A DNA stretch of 64,000 nucleotides. It comes from Marsupella aquatica (Eukaryota > Plantae > Marchantiophyta). The DNA lies in contig OZ316891.1 of assembly GCA_973895155.1 (NCBI GenBank), positions 32,375,208 to 32,439,207 on the forward strand. Reading direction: 5' to 3'. Each line of letters opens with the position of its first letter. The first letter of the stretch is position 1. Shown piece after piece: positions 9,022 to 40,147 of this stretch. The translations under genes and the position numbers were made by a program. A model generated the notes under the pieces. It worked only from the letters and a program-made list of their open reading frames with translations, was not told where the DNA came from and did no database searches.

Positions 9022-9050
9022 AACCTTTGGTGCAGACTCATATCTACAAC

Positions 9051-12000
9051 TGTCACGTCATCCGCCTTGGCCGTAACTCAGGCTTAAGCTTTAAACGGGC
9101 ATCTCCTTCGTAAAAATGAGGGTTCGGGCAGGGAGGGAAGCGCGTCATGCACCTAATTCACGAAAACTAGCGCTAAGTGCGCCTACTGTTAGATACGGAC
9201 ATCTCCTAGGTATGGTTTGTGTTCCGCCGCCGGAACATACCTTAGTCGATAACAGGATCGACCCCGGCTTAAGGACTTCTAAGCCTTCGTGTTGTCCGCC
9301 TTTGATCCGGATTCTATGATACAGGTCCTCAACCCGTGCTCGCAACCACATACCCGCAGGTTGCACCCCGTGCACGACTTGGGTAGTGCGTTCGGCCCCG
9401 GCGTTGTCACCTATACACAAGATTCACACACACACATACATGCGCACAAGCATACAATCTCGATTTACATGAAGGAAATAATGGGAAAGGATTTTACTAC
9501 ATAGGGGACATGTGCGTACACTTGGTTGACTTGATAGCTCCGGAATGAATAGGTTCAAGGCCGAGAGAGTATACTACAACAGAGCCCGGCTCCGCACTCG
9601 CCTGACGAGCTTAGTCCTACCCCCTCCCCTTGGTACTCTTTCATTCCCAGAGGTCGGGACTCCCCGCACATACCACGGATGTCCAACTCTGAGACTAAAA
9701 CCCCCCCTTGCCTCTACCGAGGGGTGCACTAAATACTAAGGGCTGGGGAACGGAGTGTCCTCCCGCCCGAAGATCCGCTGACTTAGGTCCTAACTAATCT
9801 GACCGTCAGGCCAAAAAACGGCCGTGTCTTATTAGAAGATCCTAATCTATGCAGGCTGGACAGCACGGCAGTGCTGCTGTAACTAAGGTAGGTGCCTGTC
9901 CCAATAGCCTGACTTTAGCTACTCCTAACCCTATTCTATTCCTACTCCGCTGCTAATGTCTGGCACGCTTGCCAGAGCCGCCCGAGTGGGAGCGGTCTTC
10001 CCGCTGTCTGCAAAGCCTGTCGTTGTCCGACTTGAGGAGCTGGACTTGGTCTAGCAGAGATTCGTTCTCTCACTTTGCCGCGTCCGTCTCCTCCGCTGCC
10101 TCCTGGCATGCCTCCTCCAGCTGCTGGGCGTTGCTAGTCAGCTTGCCTACCAACTGGTCCTGCTTATCGGCTTCGGCTTGTAGCGTGGCTATTTCTGTAG
10201 TGTCCCGTTGGGCTCGTTCTTTGGCCTCCTCCAAGTCTTTCTGCCAGATGACAGTTTGTTTCTTCAAACTGTCAATCTGGGACCGGAGCCGTGAAATCTT
10301 GGCCTCGTTCCCTGCTTTGGCCTGCTTGGCTAGGGCGGTAAGGGCATGCGCCTTTGCTAACGACTCGTCGGCGGCTGCGACCTTGGGTCGTAGTTGCAGA
10401 AGCTCCGCCTTCTGAGCCGCAACCTCGTTCTTTAAGTATACGGACTCCTCCCGGTATCGCTCTATCCTCTGAAGGGCCTCCGACTGGGCCCGACCGGCTT
10501 TTACTATGGCAACCAACTCCTGATTGAAGAAACAGGCTACCTTCCGGGCCATGAACTCCCCGGTATCCCGGGCAATTTGATGAGAGAAATCTCCCAGAAG
10601 CCCATTCAGAAATGTGCCCGGTACGAAGAGTTCTGGGTGGTCTAGGTTGTGCCTGTCCGGAGTTGGGCACGGGCAGACGTCAACACGCGCGGGGGCCGGG
10701 GCAGTGACATCCAGCCCTGGTGACGCGTTGGAAGGGGCTGGAGTGTCCTGCTGCTGCAATGTCCGGTTCTCCGGAATAGCCACCGCCGGGTCATTGGGGG
10801 GCCCGGGCTCGAGTAAGACCTCCGTTGTACCGACTTCTGTACTTAGCCCAGCCTGTTGGATCACATCTACGGTTGCGATAACCGACCCATCCGGTACCTC
10901 CTCGGTCACGACTACAGCTACTTGCGGGGGTGGGGTGGGTGAAGCTTGCGTGTCCGTTGGACTTCGTGCCTCGGGTTGGGGCCGTCTCTCCAAGGCCGGG
11001 AACACCCACCTAGCGGGGACCAGCCTTGCAATGTTGACACGGGGAAGGGTTTGTCGATCAAACCAAGCGTACCACTCAAGAATGATCTCGATGTGGCTAG
11101 CGAAATATGCCTTCCCGCCAATATATAGTGTCTTCTTTTGCTGCTCCATCTCTTCATGGAATTTCTTAGCAAAGTACGATGCCCACCTCCTGGGTCGATA
11201 GTTCTCGACCTGGATAACCTGGGCGGCGGAGATCTCCCCCCGGGGTTCCATCATGTGGAGAGCGTACCTTTGGAACTCCAGCCGCTCAGCTATCTCGGGC
11301 ATGAGGCAGGTCCTCATCACGAACCCGTTGTCCACTGCTCCCTCCAAAGGAAAACTTGAGGATTGGTACTTGGCTCCCTTGCCCCCGGGAGCCCGTGATT
11401 CGACTCGATGGTCACCTTCGGGTAGTCCGAAGATCATCTTGAGCCGTTCTTCCGTGAGGGACATATTCCTTCCCCGCAGCCGAGTCTGTTGACGTACGTC
11501 GTCATAATTCTTGACGAATTCTATCATGTCCTCCCCGTAGTACCTGCAAGTGTTCCAGGGGAGAGAGGTGAGGTGCTCAAATCCCTGAGTCTTCAGGTAC
11601 ACCGCATGCTTGGGATGGAGGATGTTGTTATGCACGTTTTCCCCCATGCGGTGCATTGTCACCTTGGCCACGGCTACCGTGGCCAATGGTAACCCAGATG
11701 CAGTGGTCGGTTCCTTCCTCTTCTTCCCCCGTGTCTGGCTCGGGGATGGTGACACCTCCCCATCCTCTCTATCGGGCACAGGTAGTGCTACCGCCGTTAG
11801 TAATGGGCCCGGGGCGGCCACGGTCATCGTGTTGTCTGCTGGACCCGCTCCGTGGGTCCGAGGAGGGGACGATGTAGTGTCGGCTCCCCAAGTGCTTGCT
11901 CCTCTTGGCCGCCTGAGCAAGGGTGGGGTAGGTTCGTCGTCGTCGCTAAGGTCCACAGCGTTGATAACGGAGCGTACTTGTACTGCTGGCGGGGCGATTG

Positions 12001-13028
12001 GCGGTGGGGGTTGGCTAGGCTGAGGCTGAGGCTGAGCCTGAACCTGAGTCTGCATTGGTATGGGTACGGGTATGGGGTCCATCGGGCTGGCGCCGGTGGT
12101 TGCGGGTCTAGTTCCCATGAAGCTCTGCAGGTGCTGGTAAAAGTTCTCCGAAACAAGTGCGGACAACCTTGTCGAACGGTTAGTACTGGACTCACTGTTG
12201 ATGATAGCCCAAACCTGAGCAGGGATGTGGTCGAAGTGATGTCGTTGCAAGTCGATCGTCCCCAGGATATTGAAGACCTCGTCCGGAAGCCGAAGCAATG
12301 CTTCCCAAAACCCGATATATTTGTCTCCGTTGAAGAAGTACCCAGATACCTCAGCTGGTCGGTAAAGCTCGCTCTGGGATGGGTAGTCAAAGTTAAGGAT
12401 GTAGTGGTGTCGTCCTGCTAGGCGGATGGCTCTCTCGTACTCGCGTTCTATTTCGTATCGGCGCGGGTTGGCGTGTTTCAATGAGTTGGCCAAGTGCCTT
12501 CCGGTAGATAGGAACTGCGTCCAGAATCGAATGGCCAAACTGGAGAGGATCGTGCGCGACATTTAGAGGAGATAGTAGTGGCGACTTAGAGAGAATGAGA
12601 GAGCTGGGATCAAAGCTGGCGCATGGACTGATGGACTGGTGCACTCCAAAGGGTCGGCTCCCTCTTTATACCTTGAGGGCTTGCCAATCCCCCATCATCT
12701 CCTCGTTGCCCATAGGCTGAACCGTTCACGCTTGTAGTGTACCGGCCACTCCGCCGGTCTGAGTCACCACGTGTCAGCGGATGCCTCCCAAAGTTTGTTA
12801 TACGGACCCGAGGGAGGGCCCCTCCACGCTTGTAACCCGGGCATGCGAATGGGGACGTGCCGCCAGCCCGAACATGAATTCCCCTTATTGACTAATGATT
12901 TCCTACTCATAATGGCTACCTAAATACTGTCGTTATGCTAATCATAGCGGCCTAAGATACCCCTAACGCGCATGCTAGGCACAGTTTAGACCAAATTACT
13001 CATTACTCGCCATACCGGCGGCGTCACA
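9051..13028 (-). mobile_element. Solo LTR, family B (3978 bp), protein-coding
   Basis: Ends TGTCAC...GTCACA; 5-bp TSD ACAAC at 9046-9050 and 13029-13033; no gag/pol inside. Confidence 0.85.
10070..12562 (-). CDS. LTR-encoded 830-aa protein (conserved plant-transposon-protein-like domain, Pro-rich linker, coiled coil)
   Basis: ATG-initiated ORF with a TATAAA ~100 nt upstream (12665-12670). Block LPW..EFVKNYD..TRLRG..SLT..IFGLPEG is shared with the family A and C ORFs. The frame stays open ~39 codons past the TGA, so this stop may be a recent CGA>TGA change. Confidence 0.75.
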   Translation of the reverse strand: MSRTILSSLAIRFWTQFLSTGRHLANSLKHANPRRYEIEREYERAIRLAGRHHYILNFDYPSQSELYRPAEVSGYFFNGDKYIGFWEALLRLPDEVFNILGTIDLQRHHFDHIPAQVWAIINSESSTNRSTRLSALVSENFYQHLQSFMGTRPATTGASPMDPIPVPIPMQTQVQAQPQPQPSQPPPPIAPPAVQVRSVINAVDLSDDDEPTPPLLRRPRGASTWGADTTSSPPRTHGAGPADNTMTVAAPGPLLTAVALPVPDREDGEVSPSPSQTRGKKRKEPTTASGLPLATVAVAKVTMHRMGENVHNNILHPKHAVYLKTQGFEHLTSLPWNTCRYYGEDMIEFVKNYDDVRQQTRLRGRNMSLTEERLKMIFGLPEGDHRVESRAPGGKGAKYQSSSFPLEGAVDNGFVMRTCLMPEIAERLEFQRYALHMMEPRGEISAAQVIQVENYRPRRWASYFAKKFHEEMEQQKKTLYIGGKAYFASHIEIILEWYAWFDRQTLPRVNIARLVPARWVFPALERRPQPEARSPTDTQASPTPPPQVAVVVTEEVPDGSVIATVDVIQQAGLSTEVGTTEVLLEPGPPNDPAVAIPENRTLQQQDTPAPSNASPGLDVTAPAPARVDVCPCPTPDRHNLDHPELFVPGTFLNGLLGDFSHQIARDTGEFMARKVACFFNQELVAIVKAGRAQSEALQRIERYREESVYLKNEVAAQKAELLQLRPKVAAADESLAKAHALTALAKQAKAGNEAKISRLRSQIDSLKKQTVIWQKDLEEAKERAQRDTTEIATLQAEADKQDQLVGKLTSNAQQLEEACQEAAEETDAAK

Positions 13029-13093
13029 ACAACCCATGGCACAGTCAACTCTAAAGCTAAAGGCCCTGTTGTCCTCTACAACAATGTGGAGCT

Positions 13094-16000
13094 TGTGATG
13101 CCTAGACAGGAATCACTCGGCCGGTTAAGTGGGTAAAGCAGGAAGGCACCCTAGGAACACCTTAGTATAGTGACAAAACAAGGAAAATATAAACAATTAG
13201 GGGCAACCATGGAACCCGGGCAGAGGCCGGAGGTAAGGCTGAGGGTGAAAACCCGATTAGGGTTAGGGCGCGTTAAGCGTCGGCGGCTAGGAAGGATCAA
13301 CGGGAAGAAGGACCGGCAGAGGAGAGGGGTAAGGAGCGCTTGCAGGAGATGGTGGCTCATTTGCGAGCACGAACTAGGCAGACGACTACGGGAAGCCAAC
13401 TACTGTCAGCTGCTTAGGCAAGCACTCGGGGAGAGAGTAGATACCGACGATCAACCTAAGGAGGGTATGAGCAACGTCAATCAAGCGGCACATTTCTGGG
13501 GATGCCTGTTCGAACGGGCAACTGAGTACATCAAGACTTACGAGGACGAGGAGTCAGAAAGGGCAGCTCGAGAACGGCAAGAGCTCGCTCGATTGTGGGA
13601 GCTGCAGAAGACGGCTTTCTTAGGAGGCGAACTCATCAAGGACGAGTTCCTGTGGACGCCTACTTCCAATCAACTCGACGATCTTCTATTTTGCAAAGAT
13701 AGCGTCGTCGGCATCCGAGAGGCCATCAAGAACTGCAACGACATACACTGGGAATTAAAGGGTAGCACGGAAAGGTGGACCCAGGCAACGGTGCTAGGAG
13801 AAACCTCCACGGCAGCAGAGATGAAGAGGAAGGGAGCCGTCAACGATGAAGCCACCCCGGCAAAAAGAACGAGGTCGGCGGCACCAAAGAAGCCAGCCGA
13901 GCAGCAGAGCAGGAGGCAGGGAGAAGCCGAAGAGGAGGAGGTCGATCCCATCAAGGCCATTCCAACCAGGGATGACACCTGGAAGGGCTGGGCGGCAACC
14001 CTACCGGTGGAGGTGCAACTACATTTTGCACGGGAGGAGGATGCATGCTTTACGGCCATGCAGACCAAGAAGTACCAAGGCTTCATGGCCGGATCCGGCT
14101 TGGAGGCCTTTGTAAGATTACCATGGCTGAAGCCGGAGGTACCGGAGTCAGACCTATTAGAATTCGTGGGGTCATGGGAACCCGAGACCAATTGCACGAG
14201 GATATATGGGAAGGATTTCTATCTTACTCCCAAGGTGATTGCCGAAGTGTTTGGCTTGCCGATGGGCAATAAGACCAAAGTTGATACCAGGAAGACCTTG
14301 CCTGACAAGGAGTTCCGGTCGTTCCCCGGGCCATCAACGAAGAATGGCTTCTTCCGGAACACCTGCACCAACCCGCACATAGGAGAGATGATCGACTTCT
14401 TGCGGGTGACCATGCATTGTAACTTGCCGAGGGCAGAGATCGGCAAGGCACAGGTCTATCTGGCAGAAAGGCCAGACCCAAGCCGGGACTACAACGGGTA
14501 CCTCCTCAACCAATTGAAGAAGATCTTAAAGGAGGAGCAGCAGGTAATCGGCATGGGGAGCGTGTCGCGGCTTGGCTATCACATGCCGCTGTTGTGCCGG
14601 TATGCCAGAGGTCAGACTTTTGCCCCGATACTTCCCCTGCAGGTAAGGGCACCCGAGGAAGCTCCAACGCCGAGGCCGTTGGTTGAGAAGCCTCAACCAC
14701 CTGTTAGTCCTACGATCGAGCAGGTGTTTAGGCCCAGGAAGGAAGACTTGCCGATGCAGCAACCAGGCATGCAGAGTCTGCTGAAACTACTGGAGAAAGA
14801 AAAGAAATCGGCATCGGCAACAACAACGGCAATGGCAACAATGCAGGACACTACTACAGAGGTAGGCCTACACCGGCTCACAAGAGAAAACCCCTTTGCT
14901 GGAGACAAGGAGAGAATCAGGCCGGAATCCAAGCCAGGTGTTCGAATGTACGTGGGAACCTCAAGCTCCGAATCTGAGGCAGAATTGCCTGAAGCTCCTA
15001 CCGAGGAAGAGGAGAGGGAGAAGCCGGAAATCCAAGAGGTAGAGGAGGCAGTGGAGGACTGCAGCCATGATAATTCCGGCTATGGGTCGGACCATCACGT
15101 TCCAGGAGTAAGGACCTGTGGCCGGTTTGTCCCCACACTTCCAAGGGTAGTGCGAGGGGACCCCAACCAGCAGAGTAGCCCTGAGTCTCCCCCACCAGAT
15201 GTTGCTCCCCCGAGCTTCGACGGCATAAAACAGACGGTGCAGGAATTTCAGGAGCGAATCAAGCAGGAGGAAGAGGCCGCCCTGGCTAAGGAAAAGGATT
15301 TACCAGGAGGAGATTGGCCGGAGGACATCAGGCGGCTAGCCGAAAAAGGAAGCAAACCTCTAGCCACGATTGAAGAGATCCGCAGGACGGCTTGGGAGCA
15401 GAGGCCACGATGGGCGATGCCGATCACTTCTACTTACTCCACCTACGCTAAGAATAGAGCCATGGAGTATGGTGAGATGTGTGGGGAACTTGCACTCGGC
15501 ATCTTTGGAGAGGAGTTGGAGGTAGGACCCTTTTTCCATAGGGAGCAGTTGGAGAAGCACCAATTAGAAGAAGCGGTGGCTTTAGAGAGAAGCAAGAAGG
15601 ACGAGGTCATTCGGCGGCTTAGGAGGATGGGAGCCGAGATTGAAGATCTAAGGGCGGCCAAGAAAGCCCAAGATGAACTGCGGATTAAACGACATGAGCT
15701 GAACATCATGCAGGGGCAGTTGGACGCCGCGCAGGTTGATAATCAGAATATCAAGGATAAACTGACTCAGACGCAGGAAGAGTTGGCCGACACGATCAAA
15801 GAAAGGGAAAAGTGGAAGCAAGAGCTGAAGAATACAGAGGAGGCCCACATAACAGCCAACAGCCGGGCCATGGCGGAGACCCAAAGAAAGGAATGGGCGT
15901 TGAAAGGGGAGCTCGAGAAAATCCGCGGAGCCCTTGAGCAGAAGGAGGTCGAGTTAGGGAAATCCTATCAAGGGATTATGGCGCTGCAGCTGGAGCTTGC

Positions 16001-17741
16001 GTCCCTGACGGCCAGCTTCAAGGCCGACCTAAGGGAGAAGGACGAGATGCTCGAACAGACTTACGCCAAGATGAACCAGATGGAGTCTGTCATCATTGCA
16101 GAGCTCGACAAGGAGCTAAGAGCAACCCAGGAGGAGAAGGCTACCTTGAAGAAGGAATTGGAGGAAGCCCACAGGGAGCAGGAGGAGGCCAAAAACGAGC
16201 TGGAGGGGGCACGTAAGGACCTGGATGAAACCCAAGAGGAGTTGGAGGAAATCACGAGGAAGATGGAGAACCTACAGCGGCGGGCCGACAACCAAACAGA
16301 GCGGCTGAAGAAACAAGCCGCAGTATTTAAATGCTTAGCTGCAGCAGGTCCATCTCCTGTTGGGACAAACCAGTTACCAGGGGTGGTAATTGCCGAAGGA
16401 CAAGCCGCGCCACCTGCACCAGTGCCGGAGGTAAGTGGGAAGGGGAAGGGACCAGCTGCCGAGCCACCAACGAAGAAGAAGCGGAAACCTTCAGGGTCAA
16501 GGAGTAATACGACTTCACAGGCCGTGGTGATCAAGGAGGTAGACCCAGCACCGACCCCAGACAGGGTCATGGCTAAGGATCCAACTATCCTAGGGAAAGG
16601 GGAGGCCGAAGCCGTGGGGTTGGCTGAAGCCGAAGCCGTGGGGTTGGCTGAAGCCGAAGCCGTGGGAGTTGTCGAGGCTGAAGCCGAAGGTGGACCCAGT
16701 CAGGCCGATGGAGAGTTGACTCGGTCAAGGGCAGGTAATCTGTCAGTAGGCGGGCCAACGGCAGTGGCTGAGGAGGAAGTGTTGGGGGCGTCCATTGAGG
16801 ATCCACCACCGGTGTCGTGACGGTGCAAGGGCGCCGTTCCTTTTAGGGAGGGCGGACGTGGAGGGAGGAGGCGTGAGTGGGCAGGGCGGGCGCGGATCTC
16901 CACGTTTAGGATTAGGATCAGAACCAGGAGCGGCCCTGACACTTAGCTTAGTGGGATTGCGGTTCCACTGGTAGGAGCAACACTTGTGCTCCTGCCTTGC
17001 TGTACATAGGTAGATTCGGGCAAGTAGATTACTGTTAGGTAGATTAGGCTTACGATGCAAAGAATGGCGGATCCACTACCAGGATAAGTACCTGGGCAGC
17101 GGGGAGCTCAGGGCCTCTTCTTTAGCAAGTTTTTAGTTTGCACCAGCCGGGCTGGGATCAAGTAGTACAAGAAGCTCTCGGTTAGTCATACAGTGACCCT
17201 TGTGTATATTCATGTTTCCTCATGCCTAAGAGCTGAATAGAGTTGGCCTCACGGCTTAGTTCGCAGAACTTGTGTATGAGATGTACTGTTTGTATGGCAA
17301 GTGCATGGTATGACTCAGTCAGAATGAGTCATTTTGCTATTTGTGTGTCGCATTAACTTGTGTGAAGAGTGCCCACATCAACAGAAGGAAGGAAAGTAAG
17401 CAGGGGAGTGAGAGTTGGATGTGTCGAGCTGAGAGAGGTCTTAGCGGCTTAACCAAGCCTATTGGGGATCATTCCGGCGGCGGAATCCAAACATACCTAA
17501 CAAGACGGAGGGGAAGACAGGGGAAGACAGGGGAAGGCCTATATTAGGCCGGCTACGTATCTCATGACCCGATGAAGGATCTGTCCAGTATATGTGTGTA
17601 AAATGTTAATAGTAGTAGTAGAAGGTTAGCAGCGTCCCATGCCGCTAAGCCGCGGAAACGGCCTCGCCAAGCACGAAACCTGCGGGAATCGGCTTGAGCT
17701 GGGGGGTTTCTTGGGTTTAGGGAGCCATGGGACGCACCACA
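13094..17741 (+). mobile_element. Solo LTR, family A (4648 bp), protein-coding
   Basis: TGTGAT...ACCACA; TSD GAGCT at 13089-13093 and 17742-17746; near-identical to the LTRs at 24111 and 33927. Confidence 0.95.
13209..16820 (+). CDS. LTR-encoded ~1200-aa protein (Arg-rich N-terminus, conserved domain, long coiled coil, acidic tail)
   Basis: Uninterrupted ORF (track 13170-16820, first ATG 13209) lying entirely within the solo LTR. Confidence 0.85.
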   Translation: MEPGQRPEVRLRVKTRLGLGRVKRRRLGRINGKKDRQRRGVRSACRRWWLICEHELGRRLREANYCQLLRQALGERVDTDDQPKEGMSNVNQAAHFWGCLFERATEYIKTYEDEESERAARERQELARLWELQKTAFLGGELIKDEFLWTPTSNQLDDLLFCKDSVVGIREAIKNCNDIHWELKGSTERWTQATVLGETSTAAEMKRKGAVNDEATPAKRTRSAAPKKPAEQQSRRQGEAEEEEVDPIKAIPTRDDTWKGWAATLPVEVQLHFAREEDACFTAMQTKKYQGFMAGSGLEAFVRLPWLKPEVPESDLLEFVGSWEPETNCTRIYGKDFYLTPKVIAEVFGLPMGNKTKVDTRKTLPDKEFRSFPGPSTKNGFFRNTCTNPHIGEMIDFLRVTMHCNLPRAEIGKAQVYLAERPDPSRDYNGYLLNQLKKILKEEQQVIGMGSVSRLGYHMPLLCRYARGQTFAPILPLQVRAPEEAPTPRPLVEKPQPPVSPTIEQVFRPRKEDLPMQQPGMQSLLKLLEKEKKSASATTTAMATMQDTTTEVGLHRLTRENPFAGDKERIRPESKPGVRMYVGTSSSESEAELPEAPTEEEEREKPEIQEVEEAVEDCSHDNSGYGSDHHVPGVRTCGRFVPTLPRVVRGDPNQQSSPESPPPDVAPPSFDGIKQTVQEFQERIKQEEEAALAKEKDLPGGDWPEDIRRLAEKGSKPLATIEEIRRTAWEQRPRWAMPITSTYSTYAKNRAMEYGEMCGELALGIFGEELEVGPFFHREQLEKHQLEEAVALERSKKDEVIRRLRRMGAEIEDLRAAKKAQDELRIKRHELNIMQGQLDAAQVDNQNIKDKLTQTQEELADTIKEREKWKQELKNTEEAHITANSRAMAETQRKEWALKGELEKIRGALEQKEVELGKSYQGIMALQLELASLTASFKADLREKDEMLEQTYAKMNQMESVIIAELDKELRATQEEKATLKKELEEAHREQEEAKNELEGARKDLDETQEELEEITRKMENLQRRADNQTERLKKQAAVFKCLAAAGPSPVGTNQLPGVVIAEGQAAPPAPVPEVSGKGKGPAAEPPTKKKRKPSGSRSNTTSQAVVIKEVDPAPTPDRVMAKDPTILGKGEAEAVGLAEAEAVGLAEAEAVGVVEAEAEGGPSQADGELTRSRAGNLSVGGPTAVAEEEVLGASIEDPPPVS

Positions 17742-21518: not shown

Positions 21519-22232
21519 CTTTTAACGTTGCATTCTTTCAAACAACGTCGTATATGACTATGTTACTTGGTTACTTTACGTTGTCCATCTCACTTTACAT
21601 CTTTCTACCTGACATTTTTTGTTTTTACGTCGTATGGGAAGCAGTTACTAATGTCGCATGGTACATTGTATGTAAGAAACGTCGTCCTCCACCATGTTCA
21701 TTTTACTAATACATGTGACACGGGTAACATGTCACTTAACCGAACGCGGGTCCTAGATTAAGACTTATACGGTCATTAGGACCATAGCCGTAGCGTAGAA
21801 TAGCACAAATAGCCGTCTTTGCCATTATGAATAGATTAGGAGTAGGTTAGTTGATTGAATGATTACAAATTAAGGAAGAGGATTATTATGCTCGACCGCG
21901 GTACGGTGGCGGTGGCGGAGTAAAAATCCGTTAGGAGAATCATGGTTGGACCGAGATGCCGACTTTAGCTCATTATCAACAACCAAAACAGCCTTTCCCT
22001 CTCACGCTTGAGCTCACCCTGGCACCTCCATAAGAGCGGAGTCGATGGAGCTGCGAGCCATTTGCTCATTTCCACCTTTCAGAATCTGTGGATGCTACCA
22101 TTCTCTTGCCTCTTTGGCTTGAATCAAGCTGACCTTTACAAGGAGATCATCGAGGGATAAGGGCGGATTGTGGCAAGATTTAGTCAGGACGAGTAAGGCC
22201 TCCACAAGCAAGCAGACCGGCCGGACGAGAAT

Positions 22233-24110
22233 GTGGACTCAACAAACCAGACTACAAAGGTTAGTATGACCCTTACAACCTTGGGATTTTGGACCTTGTT
22301 TGGCGAGGTAGGTGCTAAGTTCTCCGAGACTTACTGGTACTCTTGTCCCAAGAAAGCCGCTTACAAAAGAAGATACGCAAAGTTGGTGGCCAAGGTAGCA
22401 CAGGTTAACTGCGAGAAGGCAGCCATCACCCAGGATTCCAGCTACAACAAGCTACGAGACTACATCACCAAGCTATATCTCAGCAAGAAAGGGCTTAGAT
22501 CGGTAGCAGAGGCGATTCTTGAAGTCCCCGCAAAGTTCTTTAGGCTGAAGGGCAGCCAGCGGCTTACTCAAGCGGAGTTTGACAAGATCCCAGGGTACCT
22601 CGACCAGCAGATCGCGGCCAAAAAGCGCCAAGAAGACATCAGCTGACAACGGGAAGTGGCGCGTAATCTTATGTTCCTCGAGGAAAGCTCCAACGCCTTC
22701 ACCCAGGATATGGCTACCCCGACACCACCAGCCCCTCAGCCAATGACCACCGGCATACCTCCTAACCGGTCCCAAGTCCGTCCAGTGAACAACACCAAGT
22801 GTTCCTCGAACTCCGAGCGTGTTAGTCCGCAGCTTGAGCAGTGTTCTCGGAAGCGGGCAAGGACGACACCGGCCCCCGAAGCAACAACGCAAACCAACGT
22901 CGCCCCTGCACCTGGCCCGACCAACCCCCCAACCAACCAGACCCGACGGCCCACGAATAACCTGAAGTCCAACTTATTACAGGTAATCCGCGTCCCCAAA
23001 GTAGTCTGGATCGCGATCAAGAAACTCGATCACGCGGACTATCTCAAGGGGCATCAGTTGGAGCAATTTGCTCACTTGCTATGGAGACCGTGCGCAGCTG
23101 GGCCAAAGGAGATTTGTGAGTTCATCTCCAATTTTGATACTGATGCATCAACCACCAAGGTTTCGGGGCAGACCTTATCACTCACGGAGCATCGGTTAGC
23201 ACAGATCTTCTGTCTGCCCACCGGACCGGTGTCAGTTGAACTCCAAATTTGGGATAAGGAGTATACGCCTCGGCACTTCAAACCCGAGGGTAAGACAGAC
23301 AACGGATAAAAGCAGGGGTCGTGCACCAATTTAGTCTGTATGGAGCGGCTTAACTTCATACGGACTACCCTTCACATGATTGAGCCACGATCCAAGATCT
23401 CCCTCCGTACAATCGTACAAGTGGAATAGTAAAAACGACGGAACTGGGCCCAATTTTTTTACCGTAGGTTTTCGGGGGAGCTTAAGCGGGCTCAGGGAGG
23501 TATGGCTATCGGGGGGAAGACTTACCTAGGAAGTCATATCGCCATCATCCTTGCCTGGTACAAAGCGCGGCGGGAGGCCAGGGGAAAGAACATGGCCACC
23601 TCAGCCCTGACTAATGTTACCCCCACTACGGAGGAGGCTACCCCGAGCAAGCAGACTACTGTGCCTCGGGCAAACCCCAAACCGGAAGCCCCGATTAATA
23701 CTCCGTCACCCCCTCCTATTGAAATTCCACCGCCCCCTTCCGTTGAGCCTCCGCTACCCCCAGTACAACCACCCCCAATCCCTCCACCACCTGCAGAAAC
23801 CTTCCCCTCCCTAGTATAGACTACGGAGGAGCTTATTGCCCCACCCGAGGAACCACTGGTGCCCGAGAGGATGGAGGACTACCAAGTAACCCCGGGGACC
23901 ATGGCCTACGACCTGGTCTAGAAGTTTAGTCAGACTCTATCAGGGGAGCTGGCGATGTACATCGGACAACAAGTCTCGGTGTACTTTCAACCAGCCTTCT
24001 TCATGTTAGAGCACCAACCACGGATCGTAAGCCGCTTGGAAGAAGAACTCATGGCAAAAGGGAATGAGATCGGGCGCCTCCAAATGCTGGTAGAACACCT
24101 CGAGGAGGAG
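22233..24110 (+). pseudogene. Family C LTR-encoded protein, N-terminal part (multiple stops)
   Basis: ORF pieces 22233-22646, 22656-23309 and 23502-23819; LLWRPC..EFISNFD..TKVSG..SLTEHRLAQIFCLPTG and IGGKTYLGSHIAIILAWY align with the 830-aa ORF. Confidence 0.75.
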
Positions 24111-24225
24111 TGTGATGCCTAGACAGGAATCACTCGACCGGTTAAGTGGGTAAAGCAGGAAGGCACCCTAGGAACACCTTAGTATAGGGACAAAACCAGG
24201 AAAATATAAACAATTAGGGGCAACC

Positions 24226-27200
24226 ATGGAACCCGGGCCGAGGCCGGAGGTAAGGCTGAGGGTGAAAACCCGATTAGGGTTAGGGCGCGTTAAGCGTCGG
24301 CGGCTAGGAAGGATCAACGGGAAGAAGGACCGGCAGAGGAGAGGGGTAAGGAGCGCTTGCAGGAGATGGTGGCTCATTTGCGAGCACGAACTAGGCAGAC
24401 GACTACGGGAGGCCAACTACTGTCAGCTGCTTAGGCAAGCACTCGGGGAGAGAGTAGATACCGACGATCGACCTAAGGAGGGTATGAGAAACGTCAATCA
24501 AGCGGCACATTTCTGGGGATGCCTGTTCGAACGGGCAACTGAGTACATCAAGACTTACGAGGACGAGGAGTCAGAAAGGGCAGCTCGAGAACGGCAGGAG
24601 CTCGCTCGATTGTGGGAGCTGCAGAAGACGGCTTTCTTAGGAGGCAAACTCATCAAGGACGAGTTCCTGTGGACGCCTACTTCCAATCAACTCGACGATC
24701 TTCTGTTTTGCAAAGACAGCGTCGTCGGCATCCGAGAGGCCATCAAGAACTGCAACGACATACACTGGGAATTAAAGGGTAGCACGGAAAGGTGGACCCG
24801 GGCAACGGTGCTAGGAGAAACCTCCACGGCAGCAGAGATGAAGAGGAAGGGGGCCGTCAACGATGAAGCCACCCCGGCAAAAAGAACGAGGTCGGCGGCA
24901 CCAAAGAAGCCAGCCGAGCAGCAGAGCAAGGGGCAGGGAGAAGCCGAAGAGGAGGAGGTCGATCCCATCAAGGCCATTCCAACCAGGGATGACACCTGGA
25001 AGGGCTGGGCGGCAACCCTACCGGTGGAGGTGCAACTACATTTTGCACGGGAGGAGGATGCATGCTTTACGGCCATGCAGACCAAGAAGTACCAAGGCTT
25101 CATGGCCGGATCCGGCTTGGAGGCCTTTGTAAGATTACCATGGCTGAAGCCGGAGGTACCGGAGTCAGACCTATTAGAATTCGTGGGGTCATGGGAACCC
25201 GAGACCAATTGCACAAGGATATATGGGAAGGATTTCTATCTTACTCCCAAGGTAATTGCCGAAGTGTTTGGCTTGCCGATAGGCAATAAGACCAAAGTTG
25301 ATACCAGGAAGACCTTGCCTGACAAGGAGTTCCGGTCGTTCCCCGAGCCATCAACGAAGAATGGCTTCTTCCGGAACACCTGCACCAACCCGCACATAGG
25401 AGAGATGATCGACTTCTTGCGGGTGACCATGCATTGTAACTTGCCGAGGGCAGAGATCGGCAAAGCACAGGTCTATCTGGCAGAAAGGCCAGACCCAAGC
25501 CGGGACTACAACGGGTACCTCCTCAACCAATTGAAGAAGATCTTAAAGGAGGAGCAGCAGGTAATCGGCATGGGAAGCGTGTCGCGGCTTGGCTATCACA
25601 TGCCGCTGTTGTGCCGGTATGCCAGAGGTCAGACTTTTGCCCCGGTACTTCCCCTGCAGGTAAGGGCACCCGAGGAAGCTCCAACGCCGAGGCCGTTGGC
25701 TGAGAAGCCTCAACCACCTGTTAGTCCTACGATCGAGCAGGTGTTTAGGCCCAGGAAGGAAGACTTGCCGATGCAGCAACCAGGCATGCAGAGTCTGCTG
25801 AAACTACTGGAGAAAGAAAAGAAATCGGCATCGGCAACAACAACGGCAACGGCAACAATGCAGGACACTACTACAGAGGTAGGCCAACACCGGCTCACAA
25901 GAGAAAACCCCTTTGCTGGAGACAAGAAGAGAATCAGGCCGGAATCCAAGCCAGGTGTTCGAATGTACGTGGGAACCTCAAGCTCCGAATCTGAGGCAGA
26001 ATTGCCTGAAGCTCCTACCGAGGAAGAGGAGAGGGAGAAGCCGGACGTCCAAGAGGTAGAGGAGGCAGTGGAGGACTGCAGCCATGATAATTCCGGCTAT
26101 GGGTCGGACCATCACGTTCCAGGAGTAAGGACCTGTGGCCGGTTTGTCCCCACACTTCCAAGGGTAGTGCGAGGGGACCCCAACCAGCAGAGTAGCCCTG
26201 AGTCTCCCCCACCAGATGTTGCTCCCCCGAGCTTCGACGGCATAAAACAGACGGTGCAGGAATTTCAGGAGCGAATCAAGCAGGAGGAAGAGGCCGCCCT
26301 GGCTAAGGAAAAGGATTTACCAGGAGGAGATTGGCCGGAGGACATCAGGCGGCTAGCCGAAAAAGGAAGCAAACCTCTAGCCACGATTGAAGAGATCCGC
26401 AGGACGGCGTGGGAGCAGAGGCCACGATGGGCGATGCCGATCACTTCTACTTACTCCACCTACGCTAAGAATAGAGCCATGGAGTATGGTGAGATATGTG
26501 GGGAACTTGCGCTCGGCATCTTTGGAGAGGAGTTGGAGGTAGGACCCTTTTTTCATAGGGAGCAGTTGGAGAAGCACCAATTAGAAGAAGCGGTGGCTTT
26601 AGAGAGAAGCAAGAAGGACGAGGTCATTCGGCGGCTTAGGAGGATGGAAGCCGAGATTGAAGATCTAAGGGCGGCCAAGAAAGCCCAAGATGAACTGCGG
26701 ATTAAACGACATGAGCTGAACATCATGCAGGGGCAGTTGGACACCGCGCAGGCTGATAATCAGAATATCAAGGATAAATTGACTCAGACGCAGGAAGAGT
26801 TGGCCGACACGATCAAAGAGAGGGAGAAGTGGAAGCAAGAGCTGAAGAATACAGAGGAGGCCCACATAACAGCCAACAGCCGGGCCATGGCGGAGACCCA
26901 AAGAAAGGAATGGGCGTTGAAAGGGGAGCTCGAGAAAATCCGTGGAGCCCTTGAGCAGAAGGAGGTCGAGTTAGGGAAATCCTATCAAGGGATTATGGCG
27001 CTGCAGCAGGAGCTTGCGTCCCTGACGGCCAGCTTCAAGGCCGACCTAAGGGAGAAGGACGAGATGCTCGAACAGACTTACGCCAAGATGAACCAGATGG
27101 AGTCTGTCATCATTGCAGAGCTCGACAAGGAGCTAAGAGCAACCCAGGAGGAGAGGGCTACCTTGAAGAAGGAATTGGAGGAAGCCCACAGGGAGCAGGA

Positions 27201-27849
27201 GGAGGCCAAAAACGAGCTGGAGGGGGCACGTAAGGACCTGGATGAAACCCAAGAGGAGTTGGAGGAAATCACGAGGAAGATGGAGAACCTACAGCGGCGG
27301 GCCGACAACCAAACAGAGCGGCTGAAGAAACAAGCCGCAGTATTTAAATGCTTAGCTGCAGCAGGTCCATCTCCCGTTGGGACAAACCAGTTACCAGGGG
27401 TGGTAATTGCCGAAGGACAAGCCGCGTCAACTGCACCAGTGCCGGAAGTAAGTGGGAAGGGGAAGGGACCAGCTGCCGAGCCACCAACGAAGAAGAAGCG
27501 GAAACCTTCAGGGTCAAGGAGTAATACGACTTCACAGGCCGTGGTGATCAAGGAGGTAGACCCAGCACCGACCCCAGACAGGGTCACGGCTAAGGATCCA
27601 ACTACCCTAGGGGAAGGGGAGGCCGAAGCCGAGGGAGTGGCTGAAGCCGAAGCCGTGGGAGTGGCTGAGGCTAAAGCCGTGGGTATTGCCGAGGCCGGTG
27701 TCGAGGCTGAAGCCGAAGGTGGACCCAGTCAGGCCGATGGAGAGTTGACTCGGTCAAGGGCAGGTAATCTGTCAGTAGGCGGGCCAACGGCAGTGGCTGA
27801 GGAGGAAGTGTTGGGGGCGTCCATTGAGGATCCACCACCGGTGTCGTGA
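24226..27849 (+). CDS. LTR-encoded 1207-aa protein (intact, 5' LTR copy)
   Basis: Uninterrupted ORF, nearly identical to 13209-16820. Confidence 0.85.
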   Translation: MEPGPRPEVRLRVKTRLGLGRVKRRRLGRINGKKDRQRRGVRSACRRWWLICEHELGRRLREANYCQLLRQALGERVDTDDRPKEGMRNVNQAAHFWGCLFERATEYIKTYEDEESERAARERQELARLWELQKTAFLGGKLIKDEFLWTPTSNQLDDLLFCKDSVVGIREAIKNCNDIHWELKGSTERWTRATVLGETSTAAEMKRKGAVNDEATPAKRTRSAAPKKPAEQQSKGQGEAEEEEVDPIKAIPTRDDTWKGWAATLPVEVQLHFAREEDACFTAMQTKKYQGFMAGSGLEAFVRLPWLKPEVPESDLLEFVGSWEPETNCTRIYGKDFYLTPKVIAEVFGLPIGNKTKVDTRKTLPDKEFRSFPEPSTKNGFFRNTCTNPHIGEMIDFLRVTMHCNLPRAEIGKAQVYLAERPDPSRDYNGYLLNQLKKILKEEQQVIGMGSVSRLGYHMPLLCRYARGQTFAPVLPLQVRAPEEAPTPRPLAEKPQPPVSPTIEQVFRPRKEDLPMQQPGMQSLLKLLEKEKKSASATTTATATMQDTTTEVGQHRLTRENPFAGDKKRIRPESKPGVRMYVGTSSSESEAELPEAPTEEEEREKPDVQEVEEAVEDCSHDNSGYGSDHHVPGVRTCGRFVPTLPRVVRGDPNQQSSPESPPPDVAPPSFDGIKQTVQEFQERIKQEEEAALAKEKDLPGGDWPEDIRRLAEKGSKPLATIEEIRRTAWEQRPRWAMPITSTYSTYAKNRAMEYGEICGELALGIFGEELEVGPFFHREQLEKHQLEEAVALERSKKDEVIRRLRRMEAEIEDLRAAKKAQDELRIKRHELNIMQGQLDTAQADNQNIKDKLTQTQEELADTIKEREKWKQELKNTEEAHITANSRAMAETQRKEWALKGELEKIRGALEQKEVELGKSYQGIMALQQELASLTASFKADLREKDEMLEQTYAKMNQMESVIIAELDKELRATQEERATLKKELEEAHREQEEAKNELEGARKDLDETQEELEEITRKMENLQRRADNQTERLKKQAAVFKCLAAAGPSPVGTNQLPGVVIAEGQAASTAPVPEVSGKGKGPAAEPPTKKKRKPSGSRSNTTSQAVVIKEVDPAPTPDRVTAKDPTTLGEGEAEAEGVAEAEAVGVAEAKAVGIAEAGVEAEAEGGPSQADGELTRSRAGNLSVGGPTAVAEEEVLGASIEDPPPVS

Positions 27850-28092
27850 CGGTGCAAGGGCGCCGTTCCTTTTAGGGAGTGGCTGAGGCCGAAGCCGTGG
27901 GTATTGCCGAGGCCGGTGTCGAGGCTGAAGCCGAAGGTGGACCCAGTCAGGCCGATGGAGAGTTGACTCGGTCAAGGGCAGGTAATCTGTCAGTAGGCGG
28001 GCCAACGGCAGTGGCTGATGAGGAAGTGTTGGGGGCGTCCATTGAGGATCCACCACCGGTGTCGTGACGGTGCAAGGGCGCCGTTCCTTTTA
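27657..28092 (+). repeat. 218-bp tandem duplication within the LTR (also at 37473-37908)
   Basis: 27657-27874 is repeated at 27875-28092 with GGGAG at the junctions; absent from solo LTR 13094-17741. Confidence 0.9.
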
Positions 28093-28992
28093 GGGAGGGC
28101 GGACGTGGAGGGAGGAGGCGTGAGTGGGCAGGGCGGGCGCGGATCTCCACGTTTAGGATTAGGATCAGAACCAGGAGCGGCCCTGACACTTAGCTTAGTG
28201 GGATTGCGGTTCCACTGGTAGGAGCAACACTTGTGCTCCTGCCTTGCTGTACATAGGTAGATTCGGGCAAGTAGATTACTGTCAGGTAGATTAGGCTTAC
28301 GATGCAAAGAATGGCGGATCCACTACCAGGATAAGTACCTGGGCAGCGGGGAGCTCAGGGCCTCTTCTTTAGCAAGTTTTTAGTTTGCACCAGCCGGGCT
28401 GGGATCAAGTAGTACGAGAAGCTCTCGGTTAGTCATATAGTGACCCTTGTGTATATTCATGTTTCCTCATGCCTAAGAGCTGAATAGAGTTGGCCTCACG
28501 GCTTAGTTCGCAGAACTTGTGTATGAGATGTACTGTTTGTATGGCAAGTGCATGGTATGACTCAGTCAGAATGAGTCATTTTGCTATTTGTGTGTCGCAT
28601 TAACTTGTGTGAAGAGTGCCCACATCAACAGAAGGAAGGAAAGTAAGCAGGGGAGTGATAGTTGGATGTGTCGAGCTGAGAGAGGTCTTAGCGGCTTAAC
28701 CAAGCCTATTGGGGATCATTCCGGCGGCGGAATCCAAACATACCTAACAAGACGGAGGGGAAGACAGGGGAAGACAAGGGAAGGCCTATATTAGGCCGGC
28801 TACGTATCTCATGACCCGATGAAGGATCTGTCCAGTATATGTGTGTAAAATGTTAATAGTAGTAGTAGAAGGTTAGCAGCGTCCCATGCCGCTAAGCCGC
28901 GGAAACGGCCTCGCCAAGCACGAAACCTGCGGGAATCGGCTTGAGCTGGGGGGTTTCTTGGGTTTAGGGAGCCATGGGACGCACCACATTTT

Positions 28993-29010
28993 TGGCGCTA
29001 GATGGAGGGG
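28993..29010 (+). promoter_or_regulatory. Primer binding site, tRNA-Asn-like
   Basis: TGGCGCTAGATGGAGGGG 4 nt after the LTR; close to the complement of the plant tRNA-Asn(GTT) 3' end. Confidence 0.8.
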
Positions 29011-29249
29011 GCATTTCTTAAGCCGTGAGATATGAAGTTAGAACGGAAGCGTAGGTAATGACTGACCTTACGCCGAGGGAAGAAAGAGTGATTCAACGGG
29101 AGAGAGCTCGACTGCAGCAGCTCGCCGGGTGGCATGATACACAGTGACTGAGAGGGGCAGAAAGAGCTGGTAGCTCCGAAACTGGAAGTGGCGTCGAAGA
29201 AGACATACCAGAGGAAGAGTCGGTAAGGAGAAGTGAGTCTCCAACCGAC

Positions 29250-31601: not shown

Positions 31602-32254
31602 CCGAGGTAATAGAAGATTGGGGTATAAAGCAGTTCACTTTCGGGACCCCCTCTATCACGGTATCCTGGGACACTAAGGATGACCGTAGGAAAAGCATAA
31701 GGGAAGTAGATGGGTACGATAGTGGACTGGAGTCAGCCGATGAAGTACGTTGGTTAGAATGCCTCACTAACCTAACCGAAGAAGGCGTCTTTGGACCAGA
31801 GGTACCCCCCAGCGGATTATGGCAAGAACCAATGGAAGGTGACTTGGAAGAAGAAGACGAAGAGGTCGAGGACTGCTTTACAATAGAATCCACCTTTTTA
31901 GCTGCAATTCCGGAGGAAGTAAAGGATGTAGACCAATTGGATGAAACGGCTAAGTGGGGAGCAGTAGCAGGGACAGTGGATTTTCTGCAGGCGTTGTGGC
32001 AGAGCCGACGGGGTCCACAACGCCATCGATCATCGGCAAGAAATTAAATACCAAGGGATCGGCATACAAGCCGATTACGAGGGCAGCACAAATTGAGGCC
32101 CTATTAGAAGCCGAGAGAGCACAGCGGCCTAACTCTCAGGAGCAAGAGGTGGATGAGATGGACAGACACGATCTAGAGCCAAGGCAGGAAGGGGAGCCGA
32201 CCACTAATTCAAAACCAAATAGACCGGTAAGGGGACAATCTATGGACACCAAGG

Positions 32255-38804: not shown

Positions 38805-38809
38805 AGGAG

Positions 38810-39280
38810 GCCACTACCCGCTGTGAAGAGTTATCCCGCACCGTCGAGCAGTGGGACGGACTAACCCAGGAGTTGAGCGAGGCATAAACAGATCTCAAGA
38901 AGCTAGACGACACCATGCTTCAGTTGCGCTCGGAATCCTCGGCTCGGGTTACCAGTCTGACCGACCTCAACAACCAATTCTTACAAGCGGCTCAACAGGT
39001 GGCTAGTCTTTTTGCCAAACGGGATAAATTGCTGGCGCAGGACCAGACCCATCACGACTCCATTAACCAGCTCAACCTGGAGGTAGCATGGCTCCAGACG
39101 GAGGCCGATGAAGCTACAAACAAGACAGAGGAGGCGGTGCGGGACAACAAGGCCTTACAAGACCGCATTACCCTACTCGTCCTCTAGCGGGGAAGACTTG
39201 GGCCCACCTCTGATCAAGGCGGCTTGAGGTCTCGCCCCGACAGGGAGACAAACCCTGGTCCAACCACAACATGCATGTAA
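38810..39280 (+). pseudogene. Family C LTR-encoded protein, coiled-coil C-terminus
   Basis: Heptad-rich frame (ORF 38915-39187) continuing from 24110 across the TSD; contains stops. Confidence 0.65.
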
Positions 39281-40147
39281 GGGGTGGTTAGCAAAGGGTG
39301 TGAGCAGGCACCGCGCGGCGCAGTGGAGTCAACGACATCTTTTTGATTAGGCTTAACGACAGAATAGCTGTCATTAGGCGTCGATTAGCGGCGCAGTAGG
39401 AAGGATTAAGATAGGATCAGTTAGGATTAGCCAACGTAGGTCCATCAACGGACTAGATTTTGGTCAGTAGATTAGCTGTTGCCACCCCGGTCAGCGCCCT
39501 TGCCGCCGACGGTCAATCGGTCAGAGGAGTGCGGTTGGTTAGTTAGAAGTTAGTTAGCCAGTAGGCATTACCCCGGGAGGTAGTATCTTCCGGTTCCTTT
39601 CCGCAAATGTAGTATTTAGGCTTCCCCTTCCGCTGTGGAAGGGGGAAAAGGCTTAGTTATTTCAGCGTAAGGAAAGGCGAGGCATGGGGAGTCCCGGCTT
39701 GAGCAAGGTTAGAGTGCACCAAGGAGTGAGAGCCAAAGTTGAGCTTGTTGGGCAAGTGCGGGGCAGGGCCTCGTAGAGACTGGGCATCGATTGCCGTTGG
39801 GCCCGCTGACCCCCTTAGAAGTCAAGTCAACTATGTAAACTGATTCTTCGCTGAGTAAATGTAGTCTTTTCCCTCTAATGTTTTCGCGAGTAACTAGTGT
39901 TGTGTGTATGCTTTGTCTGGGCAAAGGCGCCATTTTAAGGGACGTATCGGGTGTGGACTAATGGTAGGGATTGCCACCCATTGCATGTCACAAGGTATTG
40001 TCGCGTCGATGGCTTGAAAGCCCCAAGCCGGGAGTTAGTCCGAGTCACTAATTGTGGGAATATTCCAGCGGTGGAAAACAAATATACCTATGATTAGTAC
40101 GAGTTGCATAAGTGTTATACCAGTAAGTATATTGCCTTAGCCTGACA

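What the first reader, a model, noticed from the sequence alone, without database searches (positions are those of the whole stretch)
13094..17741. Giant LTRs that encode a ~1200-aa protein: a solo LTR is a complete gene cassette
Seen: a 4.6-4.9-kb LTR (TG..CA, TSD-verified as a solo LTR and as both ends of a full element) contains an uninterrupted ~3.6-kb ORF starting ~115 nt from its 5' end. The ORF is intact in two copies. The protein has an Arg-rich N-terminus, KR-rich NLS-like patches, a conserved ~150-aa domain, a coiled coil of ~250 aa and an acidic AEAEAVG-repeat tail, with no obvious transmembrane segment. Known: extra ORFs in Athila/Tat/Ogre elements normally lie between the LTRs; ORFs inside an LTR are best known from retroviruses (MMTV sag, the nef overlap). 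Inference: an accessory gene that is duplicated at every replication cycle and survives solo-LTR recombination.
Basis: partly seen in the sequence, partly recalled or inferred. Interest (0 to 1): 0.82.

Follow-up and report, generated by a model that had tools for sequence, protein, structure and literature searches.

The report
VANC-like gene inside retrotransposon LTRs
Jumping genes in what is likely a liverwort carry a large, evolutionarily protected protein gene entirely inside their terminal repeats, so that even the lone repeats left after recombination keep the whole reading frame, and the protein is predicted, on weak structural evidence, to resemble the proteins that some plant transposons use to undo host silencing.

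Summary
Confirmed and extended. 13094-17741 is a TSD-flanked solo LTR of a young Ty3/gypsy family; the same LTR bounds a full element (24111-38804). Its ORF is intact in two copies, has two stops in a third and is under purifying selection against an older copy (dN/dS 0.33 overall, 0.23 over codons 87-1050; gag 0.15). Codons 1-86 are unselected (0.89) and homologues begin at M87, so the protein is likely 1117 aa and the Arg-rich N-terminus likely a leader. A second, unalignable family (solo LTR 9051-13028, TSD, empty site seen in reads) and probably a third, decayed one carry the same gene layout (core about 26% identical), so the design is old. Named homologues come only from the liverwort Calypogeia fissa. 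No Pfam hit; ESM Atlas leads point to Transposase_32/ATHILA, and the best of 48,161 PDB chains for the core model is VANC21 on DNA (Z only 4.5, 169 residues aligned). Best reading: an LTR-borne, own-promoter accessory gene, likely a VANC/PMD-type anti-silencing DNA binder. Transcription, U3/R position and function are untested. The full element lacks RT.

The parts
13094..17741 (+). Family A solo LTR, 4648 bp, TG..CA, TSD GAGCT (13089-13093 / 17742-17746)
13188..13193 (+). Only TATAAA in the LTR (position 95), kept in the old copy; candidate promoter of the LTR gene
   Evidence: function inferred
13209..13466 (+). Codons 1-86 (Arg-rich); open but unselected, likely 5' leader
   Evidence: dN/dS 0.89 vs 0.11 for codons 87-200; Fisher p about 0.001 for both Sd and Nd
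13467..16820 (+). Likely coding sequence from M87, 1117 aa
13467..13820 (+). Conserved helical N-terminal domain (about 115 aa)
   Evidence: HMM from B, C, P0017, P0026 scores it 25 bits vs best of 2000 shuffles 7.8; model pLDDT 69
13956..14630 (+). Conserved core domain (aa 250-474), candidate VANC/PMD/Transposase_32-like DNA-binding fold
15576..16343 (+). Coiled coil (aa about 790-1045), under purifying selection
   Evidence: period 3.55; dN/dS 0.27 for codons 791-1050
17472..17499 (+). Short palindrome plus downstream conserved word near the LTR 3' end, shared by families A, B and C
24111..28988 (+). 5' LTR of full family A element, with intact ORF 24226-27849 and a ~220-bp tandem duplication at the ORF end
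28993..29010 (+). Primer binding site (TGG start 4 nt after LTR); tRNA-Asn-like from recall only
   Evidence: tRNA identity recalled, not tested
29058..31601 (+). gag (Retrotrans_gag, zf-CCHC) and protease; one stop near its start
32250..33938 (+). C-terminal part of RNase H plus integrase; no RT; integrase stop lies in the first 12 nt of the 3' LTR, PPT directly before the LTR
33927..38804 (+). 3' LTR of full element; ORF copy with two premature stops
44996..46136 (+). Old family A' copy, LTR 5' part (85% identical), decayed ORF start
40640..44997 (-). Old family A' copy, LTR 3' part, PBS and truncated gag, inverted relative to its 5' part
9051..13028 (-). Family B solo LTR, 3978 bp, TSD ACAAC, with intact 830-aa ORF 12562-10070 (same N-terminal domain, core and coiled coil) and TATAAA at LTR position 359
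21714..24110 (+). Family C, left part of a decayed LTR-like gene unit interrupted by the full A element (ends not fixed by a TSD)
38805..40147 (+). Family C, right part: coiled-coil end in the same phase, tail with the shared palindrome

Best explanation
An old lineage of Ty3/gypsy retrotransposons, likely of liverworts, carries a selected accessory gene wholly inside its LTR, likely expressed from its own promoter at the LTR's 5' end and likely encoding a nuclear VANC/PMD-type DNA-binding protein that would help its own family escape silencing. [quoted passage not shown] Follows from the LTR replication mechanism: each round of reverse transcription puts the gene in both LTRs, and LTR-LTR recombination leaves it whole in the solo LTR. 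Inferred: a TATA-driven mRNA starts near LTR position 125 (A) or 390 (B), uses M87 and ends in the GT-rich LTR tail. The genomic RNA most likely starts near the LTR's 3' end (gene in U3, as MMTV sag; about 0.6), else the gene sits in a 4-kb R. Inferred origin: a sense 3' extra ORF was taken into the LTR when the polypurine tract moved up against the integrase end. Inferred function: the core binds a family-specific DNA word in the element, the coiled coil oligomerises, and the protein acts in trans, so solo LTRs and RT-less copies would supply it to the whole family.
For: LTR limits. B limits also by a depth step from about 1,000 to 50,000-64,000 at 9050 in runs X1 and X2, and an empty-site joint 9047 to 13032 in X5. 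Selection: dN/dS 0.33 over 813 codons, 0.23 over codons 87-1050, gag control 0.15. Indels shown for A: 8 of 12 in the 0.9-kb tail, the 4 in the ORF form two compensating pairs; for B the 3 in the ORF are 3-nt. Homology across families: core 26-27% identical (E 2e-17, 5e-16); N-terminal domain; shared LTR-end palindrome, 6 of 6 window matches in these LTRs, with a two-sided change in C. Retroelement linkage elsewhere: Calypogeia fissa model P0028 has RT-RH-IN followed in sense by the accessory C-half. Fold: ESM Atlas ranks Transposase_32 and ATHILA clusters first among named ones for two members about 22% identical (0.89/0.87 and 0.84/0.83). The VIA search of 48,161 chains ranks VANC21-DNA (9lnk_A) first, Z 4.5, rmsd 4.6, 169 residues aligned against 53-109 for the other 49 rows; I had named this group before that result. 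Papers (passages): PMD-C and the VANC DUF1985 domain share structure and PMD-A is retrotransposon-encoded (10.1101/2024.09.27.615353); VANC and the Athila domain are modelled as coiled-coil pentamers (PMC13547354); VANC binds short motifs and removes methylation (PMC5735166).
Against: No expression data, so promoter, mRNA and protein are unseen. hmmscan finds no PMD, DUF1985, Transposase_32 or ATHILA hit at E<=1 in the ORF or in 13 homologues, and an HMM search of PDB sequences did not list VANC21 at E<=10. The Atlas scores are under 0.9 with 124-148 shared features, a lead only. Z 4.5 lies in the noise band, is tied within 1 of the next rows, and rests on a model of pLDDT 64, pTM 0.45. No tandem array or significantly repeated 5-7-mer, as VANC targets have, was found in LTR leaders or tails. 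Nei-Gojobori counts ignore transition bias, which lowers dN/dS somewhat. CpG observed/expected is 0.62-0.85 and copies decay by stops, so the elements are not free of methylation-type decay.
Confidence: 0.5

Rival explanations
1. The gene is real and LTR-borne, but the protein works in the particle cycle (an Athila 'env-like' or chaperone role: particle assembly, RNA packaging, nuclear import or integration targeting) rather than against silencing.
For: ATHILA and Transposase_32 clusters are the nearest named Atlas hits, and those domains occur in Athila extra ORFs (PMC11728184, passages). Long coiled coil. The full A copy sits inside a family C gene and the A solo lies 65 bp from the B solo, which could reflect targeting. 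No VANC-like target arrays.
Against: No transmembrane segment, NLS-like patches, and the only fold match over the whole domain is a DNA-bound VANC.
Confidence: 0.25
2. The protein is a sequence-specific transcriptional activator or RNA-export factor of its own element (Tax, Tas or Rev-like), with no direct effect on silencing marks.
For: Same fold and NLS evidence. A conserved palindrome or hairpin near the LTR 3' end in three families could be its site. A similar regulatory role is proposed for Retand TRP28 proteins (PMC11963269, passages).
Against: The palindrome is shared by families whose proteins are only about 26% identical, so it may as well be a host-factor or RNA signal. Hairpin folding is not exceptional (z -0.4 to -2.1).
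Confidence: 0.17
3. The ORF is a captured or vestigial sequence kept open by recent amplification, with no current function; solo LTRs are silent.
For: 5' vs 3' LTR dN/dS 0.65 (n.s.) with two stops. A' has 6 stops and C has 7 internal stops. No RNA evidence.
Against: Such decay is expected after insertion. Lineage-level dN/dS is 0.11-0.27 in the domains, and the layout is kept across unalignable families and in Calypogeia.
Confidence: 0.08

Closest known systems
MMTV sag (superantigen gene in the LTR of a betaretrovirus; PMC11998498, passages)
   Same: A complete accessory ORF inside the LTR, present in both LTRs of a provirus, under selection; solo LTRs exist in that family too.
   Different: Sag is a type II membrane protein of a vertebrate retrovirus. 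Here the ORF is about 3.4 kb in a 4-4.9-kb LTR of a plant Ty3/gypsy element, soluble and likely nuclear, with no sequence relation.
Extra ORFs of plant OTA elements: Athila ORF (PF03078 / Transposase_32 PF20167), Ogre PMD (PF10536), Retand TRP28 (PMC6317226, PMC7264820, PMC11963269, PMC11728184)
   Same: Conserved accessory gene of a non-chromovirus-like Ty3/gypsy element, sense orientation, NLS, coiled coil; Atlas features nearest to Transposase_32 and ATHILA.
   Different: Those are described in the internal region (between pol and 3' LTR, or before gag) and are lost in solo LTRs. Here it lies within the LTR and pol abuts the PPT. No Pfam match; no archaeal RNase H seen.
VANC anti-silencing proteins of VANDAL Mutator-like elements (VANC21, PDB 9lnk) and MAIN/MAIL PMD proteins (PMC5735166; 10.1101/2024.09.27.615353; PMC13547354)
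   Same: Transposon-encoded, conserved core among variable repeat-rich regions, coiled coil; VANC21 is the top fold match of the core model.
   Different: VANC is on DNA transposons and described as dicot-specific (PMC13547354); its targets form tandem arrays, not seen here. 8% identity in the fold alignment; activity untested.
Retrosat2/RIRE3/RIRE8 (Tekay) with >3-kb LTRs and ORF0 (PMC3485330, passages)
   Same: Very long LTRs, an extra ORF, many solo LTRs.
   Different: ORF0 is described upstream of gag-pol and treated apart from the LTR; different lineage and protein.

Membership tests
Ty3/gypsy LTR retrotransposon | Direct LTRs TG..CA, TSD, PBS, PPT | tested here: met
Ty3/gypsy LTR retrotransposon | Domain order gag-PR-(RT)-RH-IN | tested here: met
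   gag, zf-CCHC, PR, RH then IN; best PDB sequence match Ty3 Gag-Pol, E 1.6e-34
Autonomous element | Reverse transcriptase domain | tested here: not met
   No RT in the internal region or window; whether other copies have it was not tested
OTA superclade (Athila/Tat/Ogre/Retand) | Placement by RT-RH-INT phylogeny | not tested
   No RT here and no reference set in hand
Tat clade | Additional archaeal RNase H | tested here: inconclusive
   None between RH and IN or after IN; the region before RH is missing in this copy
Chromovirus | Chromodomain at integrase C-terminus | tested here: not met
   No chromodomain hit; integrase ends at the LTR
PMD (PF10536) / Transposase_32 (PF20167) / ATHILA (PF03078) / DUF1985 | Pfam match at gathering threshold | tested here: not met
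   No hit at E<=1 for the ORF, the domain or 13 homologues
VANC/PMD/ATHILA-like fold | Structural similarity of the core | tested here: inconclusive
   VANC21 rank 1 of 48,161, Z 4.5, rmsd 4.6, 169 aligned; Atlas leads under 0.9
VANC anti-silencing system | Binds a short motif in its own element; targets arrayed in tandem | tested here: inconclusive
   No significant 5-7-mer repeat in six non-coding LTR parts; binding not testable
VANC anti-silencing system | Causes family-specific loss of silencing marks | not testable with these tools
   needs expression and methylome data
MMTV sag-type U3 gene | ORF wholly inside the LTR | tested here: met
MMTV sag-type U3 gene | ORF upstream of the genomic-RNA start (in U3) | not testable with these tools
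   no RNA run listed
env-like ORF | Transmembrane segment | tested here: not met
   max hydropathy 1.05 (A) and 1.27 (B)

The most novel reading that the evidence does not exclude
A liverwort-wide lineage of Ty3/gypsy elements encodes a VANC-like, sequence-specific anti-silencing protein inside its LTR, so every solo LTR is a free-standing gene that keeps de-repressing its family in trans: the host's main way of deleting retrotransposons (solo-LTR recombination) would leave the counter-defence gene behind, and the VANC/PMD/Athila fold would be a retrotransposon weapon far older than the dicot VANDALs.
Probability: 0.35. Interest if true: 0.9.

Novelty: new variant of a known kind. Interest (0 to 1): 0.76.

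Why it matters
The surveys of plant extra ORFs that I read place them in the internal region, and my searches found no plant LTR holding a whole gene. Here two, probably three, families do so under selection. It changes what a solo LTR is: not a dead end-product but a possible expressed gene. It also offers a compact test of a long-open question, what Athila/Ogre-type accessory proteins do: paralogous proteins, each with its own LTR, allow a cognate versus non-cognate binding and methylation test in a liverwort. Practically, LTR finders with a length cap and gene annotators will misread these units as host genes (Calypogeia homologues are annotated as unnamed proteins).

Tried and rejected
No whole genome is held, so genome-wide copy counts and dN/dS were not possible. 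No RNA holder listed: no evidence either way. Word-index homologue search with the whole ORF: 0 of 7993 candidates; with alignment A1, 0 of 2756 among longer proteins and 3 of 7677 in the 45-1302 aa range. P0005, P0006 and P0020 are repeat artefacts and were left out of A1. Metagenome locus scan: 35 pattern matches, none confirmed, so the position of the gene relative to LTRs in other species is unseen. Foldseek: no match at E<=0.001 for the core in PDB or viral models (best an unnamed 805-aa entry, E 6e-3, rmsd 20, not interpretable), nor for the N-terminal domain. VIA for the N-terminal domain gives only generic four-helix bundles, Z<=6, no function. Family B limits by TSD alone were ambiguous (a second candidate 8870-12909 scored equally); read depth and the empty site chose 9051-13028. 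No TSD fixes family C's ends. Rejected: env-like role (no TM); chance ORF; segmental duplication instead of LTR (different TSDs, PBS, PPT); a selected 22-codon uORF in the leader (by eye, changes against A' are mostly non-synonymous). A second PPT in Athila, which would model the PPT shift, is recalled and was not found in the passages read. Literature searches for a gene within a plant LTR found none; the liverwort/Calypogeia search gave 0 papers. Steinbauerova et al. 2011 (Genetica) and the supplements of PMC6317226 were not seen and may hold LTR-located cases.
Full report
OBSERVATION. Window self-BLAST shows 13094-17741 at about 98% identity to both ends of 24111-38804. The solo copy is 4648 bp, TG..CA, flanked by GAGCT on both sides. 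The full element has two 4878-bp LTRs with 22 differences (0.45%), TSD AGGAG, a TGG-starting primer binding site 4 nt after the 5' LTR and a purine-rich tract directly before the 3' LTR. The size difference is 12 nt in the repeat tail of the ORF plus a ~220-bp tandem duplication at the ORF end. The ORF runs 13209-16820 (1203 aa) and 24226-27849 (1207 aa); the 3' LTR copy has two premature stops. The longest stop-free run is 1221 codons, against a mean of 175 and a maximum of 364 in 300 simulations. The internal region holds gag, zinc knuckles, protease, the second half of RNase H and integrase (best solved relative Ty3 Gag-Pol) but no RT, so this copy is non-autonomous. The integrase frame ends 12 nt inside the 3' LTR: there is no space between pol and the LTR.

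SELECTION. An older, rearranged copy (A', 40640-46136, 82-85% identical) allows a test. Nei-Gojobori dN/dS is 0.33 over 813 aligned codons (Fisher p 3e-23): 0.11 for codons 87-200, 0.23 for 251-341, 0.24 for 708-790, 0.27 for 791-1050, but 0.45 for 201-250, 0.63-0.65 for the tail (all n.s.) and 0.89 for 1-86; codons 342-707 are missing from A'. Gag gives 0.15 by the same method. These values include A's own decay after insertion (6 stops). Solo versus 5' and 3' LTR gives 0.42 and 0.46 (p 0.003, 0.008); 5' versus 3' LTR gives 0.65 (n.s.) with two stops, as expected for neutral decay. The method ignores transition bias; the unselected first 86 codons serve as a rough internal control. In four runs of contigs (kind not on record), the family is abundant (15,494 and 27,025 contigs laid in X1 and X2). 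Of 12 indels shown (13 listed), 8 lie in the 0.9-kb tail and the 4 in the ORF form two compensating pairs. Of the 40 substitutions shown (of 366), 36 are in the ORF: 16 synonymous, 20 not, 0 stops.

START CODON. The only TATAAA of the LTR is at position 95, 21 nt before the first ATG, too close for that ATG to be in an mRNA starting 25-35 nt downstream (spacing from general knowledge). Codons 1-86 have low dS and high dN compared with 87-200 (p about 0.001 each). An HMM built without family A scores aa 87-204 at 25 bits (best of 2000 shuffles 7.8), and B, P0017 and P0023 begin within a few residues of where M87 falls. The protein is therefore likely 1117 aa. Against this: the 86 codons are open and in frame, and their one indel against A' is 3 nt, so a longer form is not excluded.

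IT IS NOT ONE FAMILY. The core domain (aa about 250-474) hits two more loci in the window at 26-27% identity (E 2e-17 and 5e-16). Family B is a solo LTR at 9051-13028 (minus strand, 3978 bp, TSD ACAAC, ends resembling A's) with an intact 830-aa ORF and a TATAAA 108 nt before its ATG. A rival TSD pair scored equally, but summed contig depth rises at 9050 from 914 to 64,386 (X1) and from 566 to 52,092 (X2), one X5 contig joins 9047 to 13032 (an empty site), and loose ends at 13028 read purine-rich on the element's strand, as a PPT would (low agreement, 0.46). In B, the 3 ORF indels shown are 3-nt, and 7 others lie in the non-coding LTR (12 shown of 14); 26 ORF substitutions among the 40 shown (of 429): 12 synonymous, 14 not, 0 stops. 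Family C (about 21714-24110 and 38805-40147) is split by the full A element, stays in phase over about 740 codons with 7 internal stops, and has no TSD: probable only. The three share both domains, a coiled coil and one 14-nt palindrome near the LTR 3' end (6 matches in the window, all in these LTRs; C changes both arms); folding of that region is unremarkable.

RELATIVES. A full HMMER scan of 1.84 billion representatives gave 20 proteins at E<=0.001, 3 of them repeat artefacts. Of 10 looked up, 2 are named, both Calypogeia fissa, a leafy liverwort; the rest are unnamed assembly or metagenome fragments. A profile search added two more C. fissa models. P0028 has RT-RH-IN followed in sense by the accessory C-half, and its RH-IN is 41% identical to this element's. 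The host is thus inferred to be a liverwort or close; it is not shown. Where the gene sits relative to LTRs in Calypogeia could not be seen.

WHAT THE PROTEIN IS. No Pfam family matches. ESM Atlas features put Transposase_32 and ATHILA clusters first among named clusters, both for the A core (0.89, 0.87; an unnamed cluster 0.91) and for P0010 (0.84, 0.83); the tool rates such scores as leads. The core model (pLDDT 64, pTM 0.45) has no Foldseek match. In a full alignment against 48,161 chains, rank 1 is VANC21 bound to its target DNA: Z 4.5, rmsd 4.6, 169 residues over 4-224, while the other 49 rows align 53-109 residues at Z<=3.8. Published passages link VANC's DUF1985 structurally to PMD proteins and note retrotransposon-encoded PMD-A (10.1101/2024.09.27.615353; PMC13547354). 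The N-terminal domain models as a generic helical bundle. No TM segment, NLS-like patches, heptad period 3.5 in A and B.

MECHANISM. Shown: a selected gene inside the LTR of two, probably three, families. By the known replication cycle it is duplicated at each round and survives solo-LTR formation. Inferred: own TATA promoter and a poly(A) site in the GT-rich tail give a monocistronic mRNA from any LTR. The genomic RNA likely starts near the LTR's 3' end, because gag begins 70 nt after the LTR and a 4.5-kb leader with a 1100-codon upstream ORF would hinder its translation; a very long R is the alternative. Likely origin: a sense 3' extra ORF taken into the LTR by a shift of the PPT to the end of pol. 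Most likely function: family-specific DNA binding and anti-silencing in trans (0.5 for the whole reading); rivals are a particle or targeting role (0.25), plain transactivation or RNA export (0.17), no function (0.08). Against anti-silencing: no VANC-type target arrays, ongoing decay of copies, no activity data.

NOVELTY. Reviews place plant extra ORFs in the internal region (PMC7264820, main text read; PMC6317226, PMC11963269, PMC11728184, PMC3485330, passages). LTRs up to about 5 kb are known in non-chromoviruses (PMC6317226). A gene in an LTR is known from MMTV sag (PMC11998498, passages). Five searches found no plant case; subscription papers and supplements were not seen. Also read as passages, with little bearing: PMC12859917, PMC1142308, PMC5408684, 10.64898/2026.05.08.723830. 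Two unchecked notes of this scan report LTR-internal genes in other genomes, one probably fungal, so the design may recur. Verdict: a new variant of a known kind, interest 0.76.

Noticed in passing
window 24111-38804: The full element lacks RT and the first half of RNase H but keeps gag, protease, integrase and the LTR gene; unknown whether this is one copy's deletion or a whole non-autonomous family.
   Followed up: partly
window 9051-17741 and 21714-46136: Related LTR-gene elements cluster: the A solo lies 65 bp from the B solo, the full A element sits inside a C gene, and A' abuts a second C fragment; may reflect targeting or just a repeat-rich region.
   Followed up: no
window 16821-17741, 9051-10069, 39188-40147 and the three leaders: TTAG is 9-19 per kb on the sense strand of all six non-coding LTR parts against 3.2 per kb in the flanking sequence, with few on the other strand; post hoc, could be a binding word.
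   Followed up: partly
window 38860-39354 and 40149-40643: A 495-bp, 92%-identical duplicate of the family C coiled-coil end follows the apparent C end; a second C copy or a rearrangement.
   Followed up: no
window 40640-46136: The old A' copy has its LTR 5' part and 3' part back to back in opposite orientation, with internal deletions.
   Followed up: partly
window 51818-53150: A GC-rich unit starting TGTGAC with short tandem repeats and short matches to the B and C tails, with no hit to either conserved domain; possibly an LTR relative without the gene.
   Followed up: no
window 48984-51492 and 55173-57591 (- strand): Two diverged copies (65-77%) of a multi-ORF unit with a weak N6_N4_Mtase hit (E 0.0014, below cut-off).
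   Followed up: no
window 60627-63934 (+) and 3817-6775 (-): Further transposon-like ORFs without Pfam hits where scanned, one ending in a SWIM-like Cys/His pattern (by eye).
   Followed up: no
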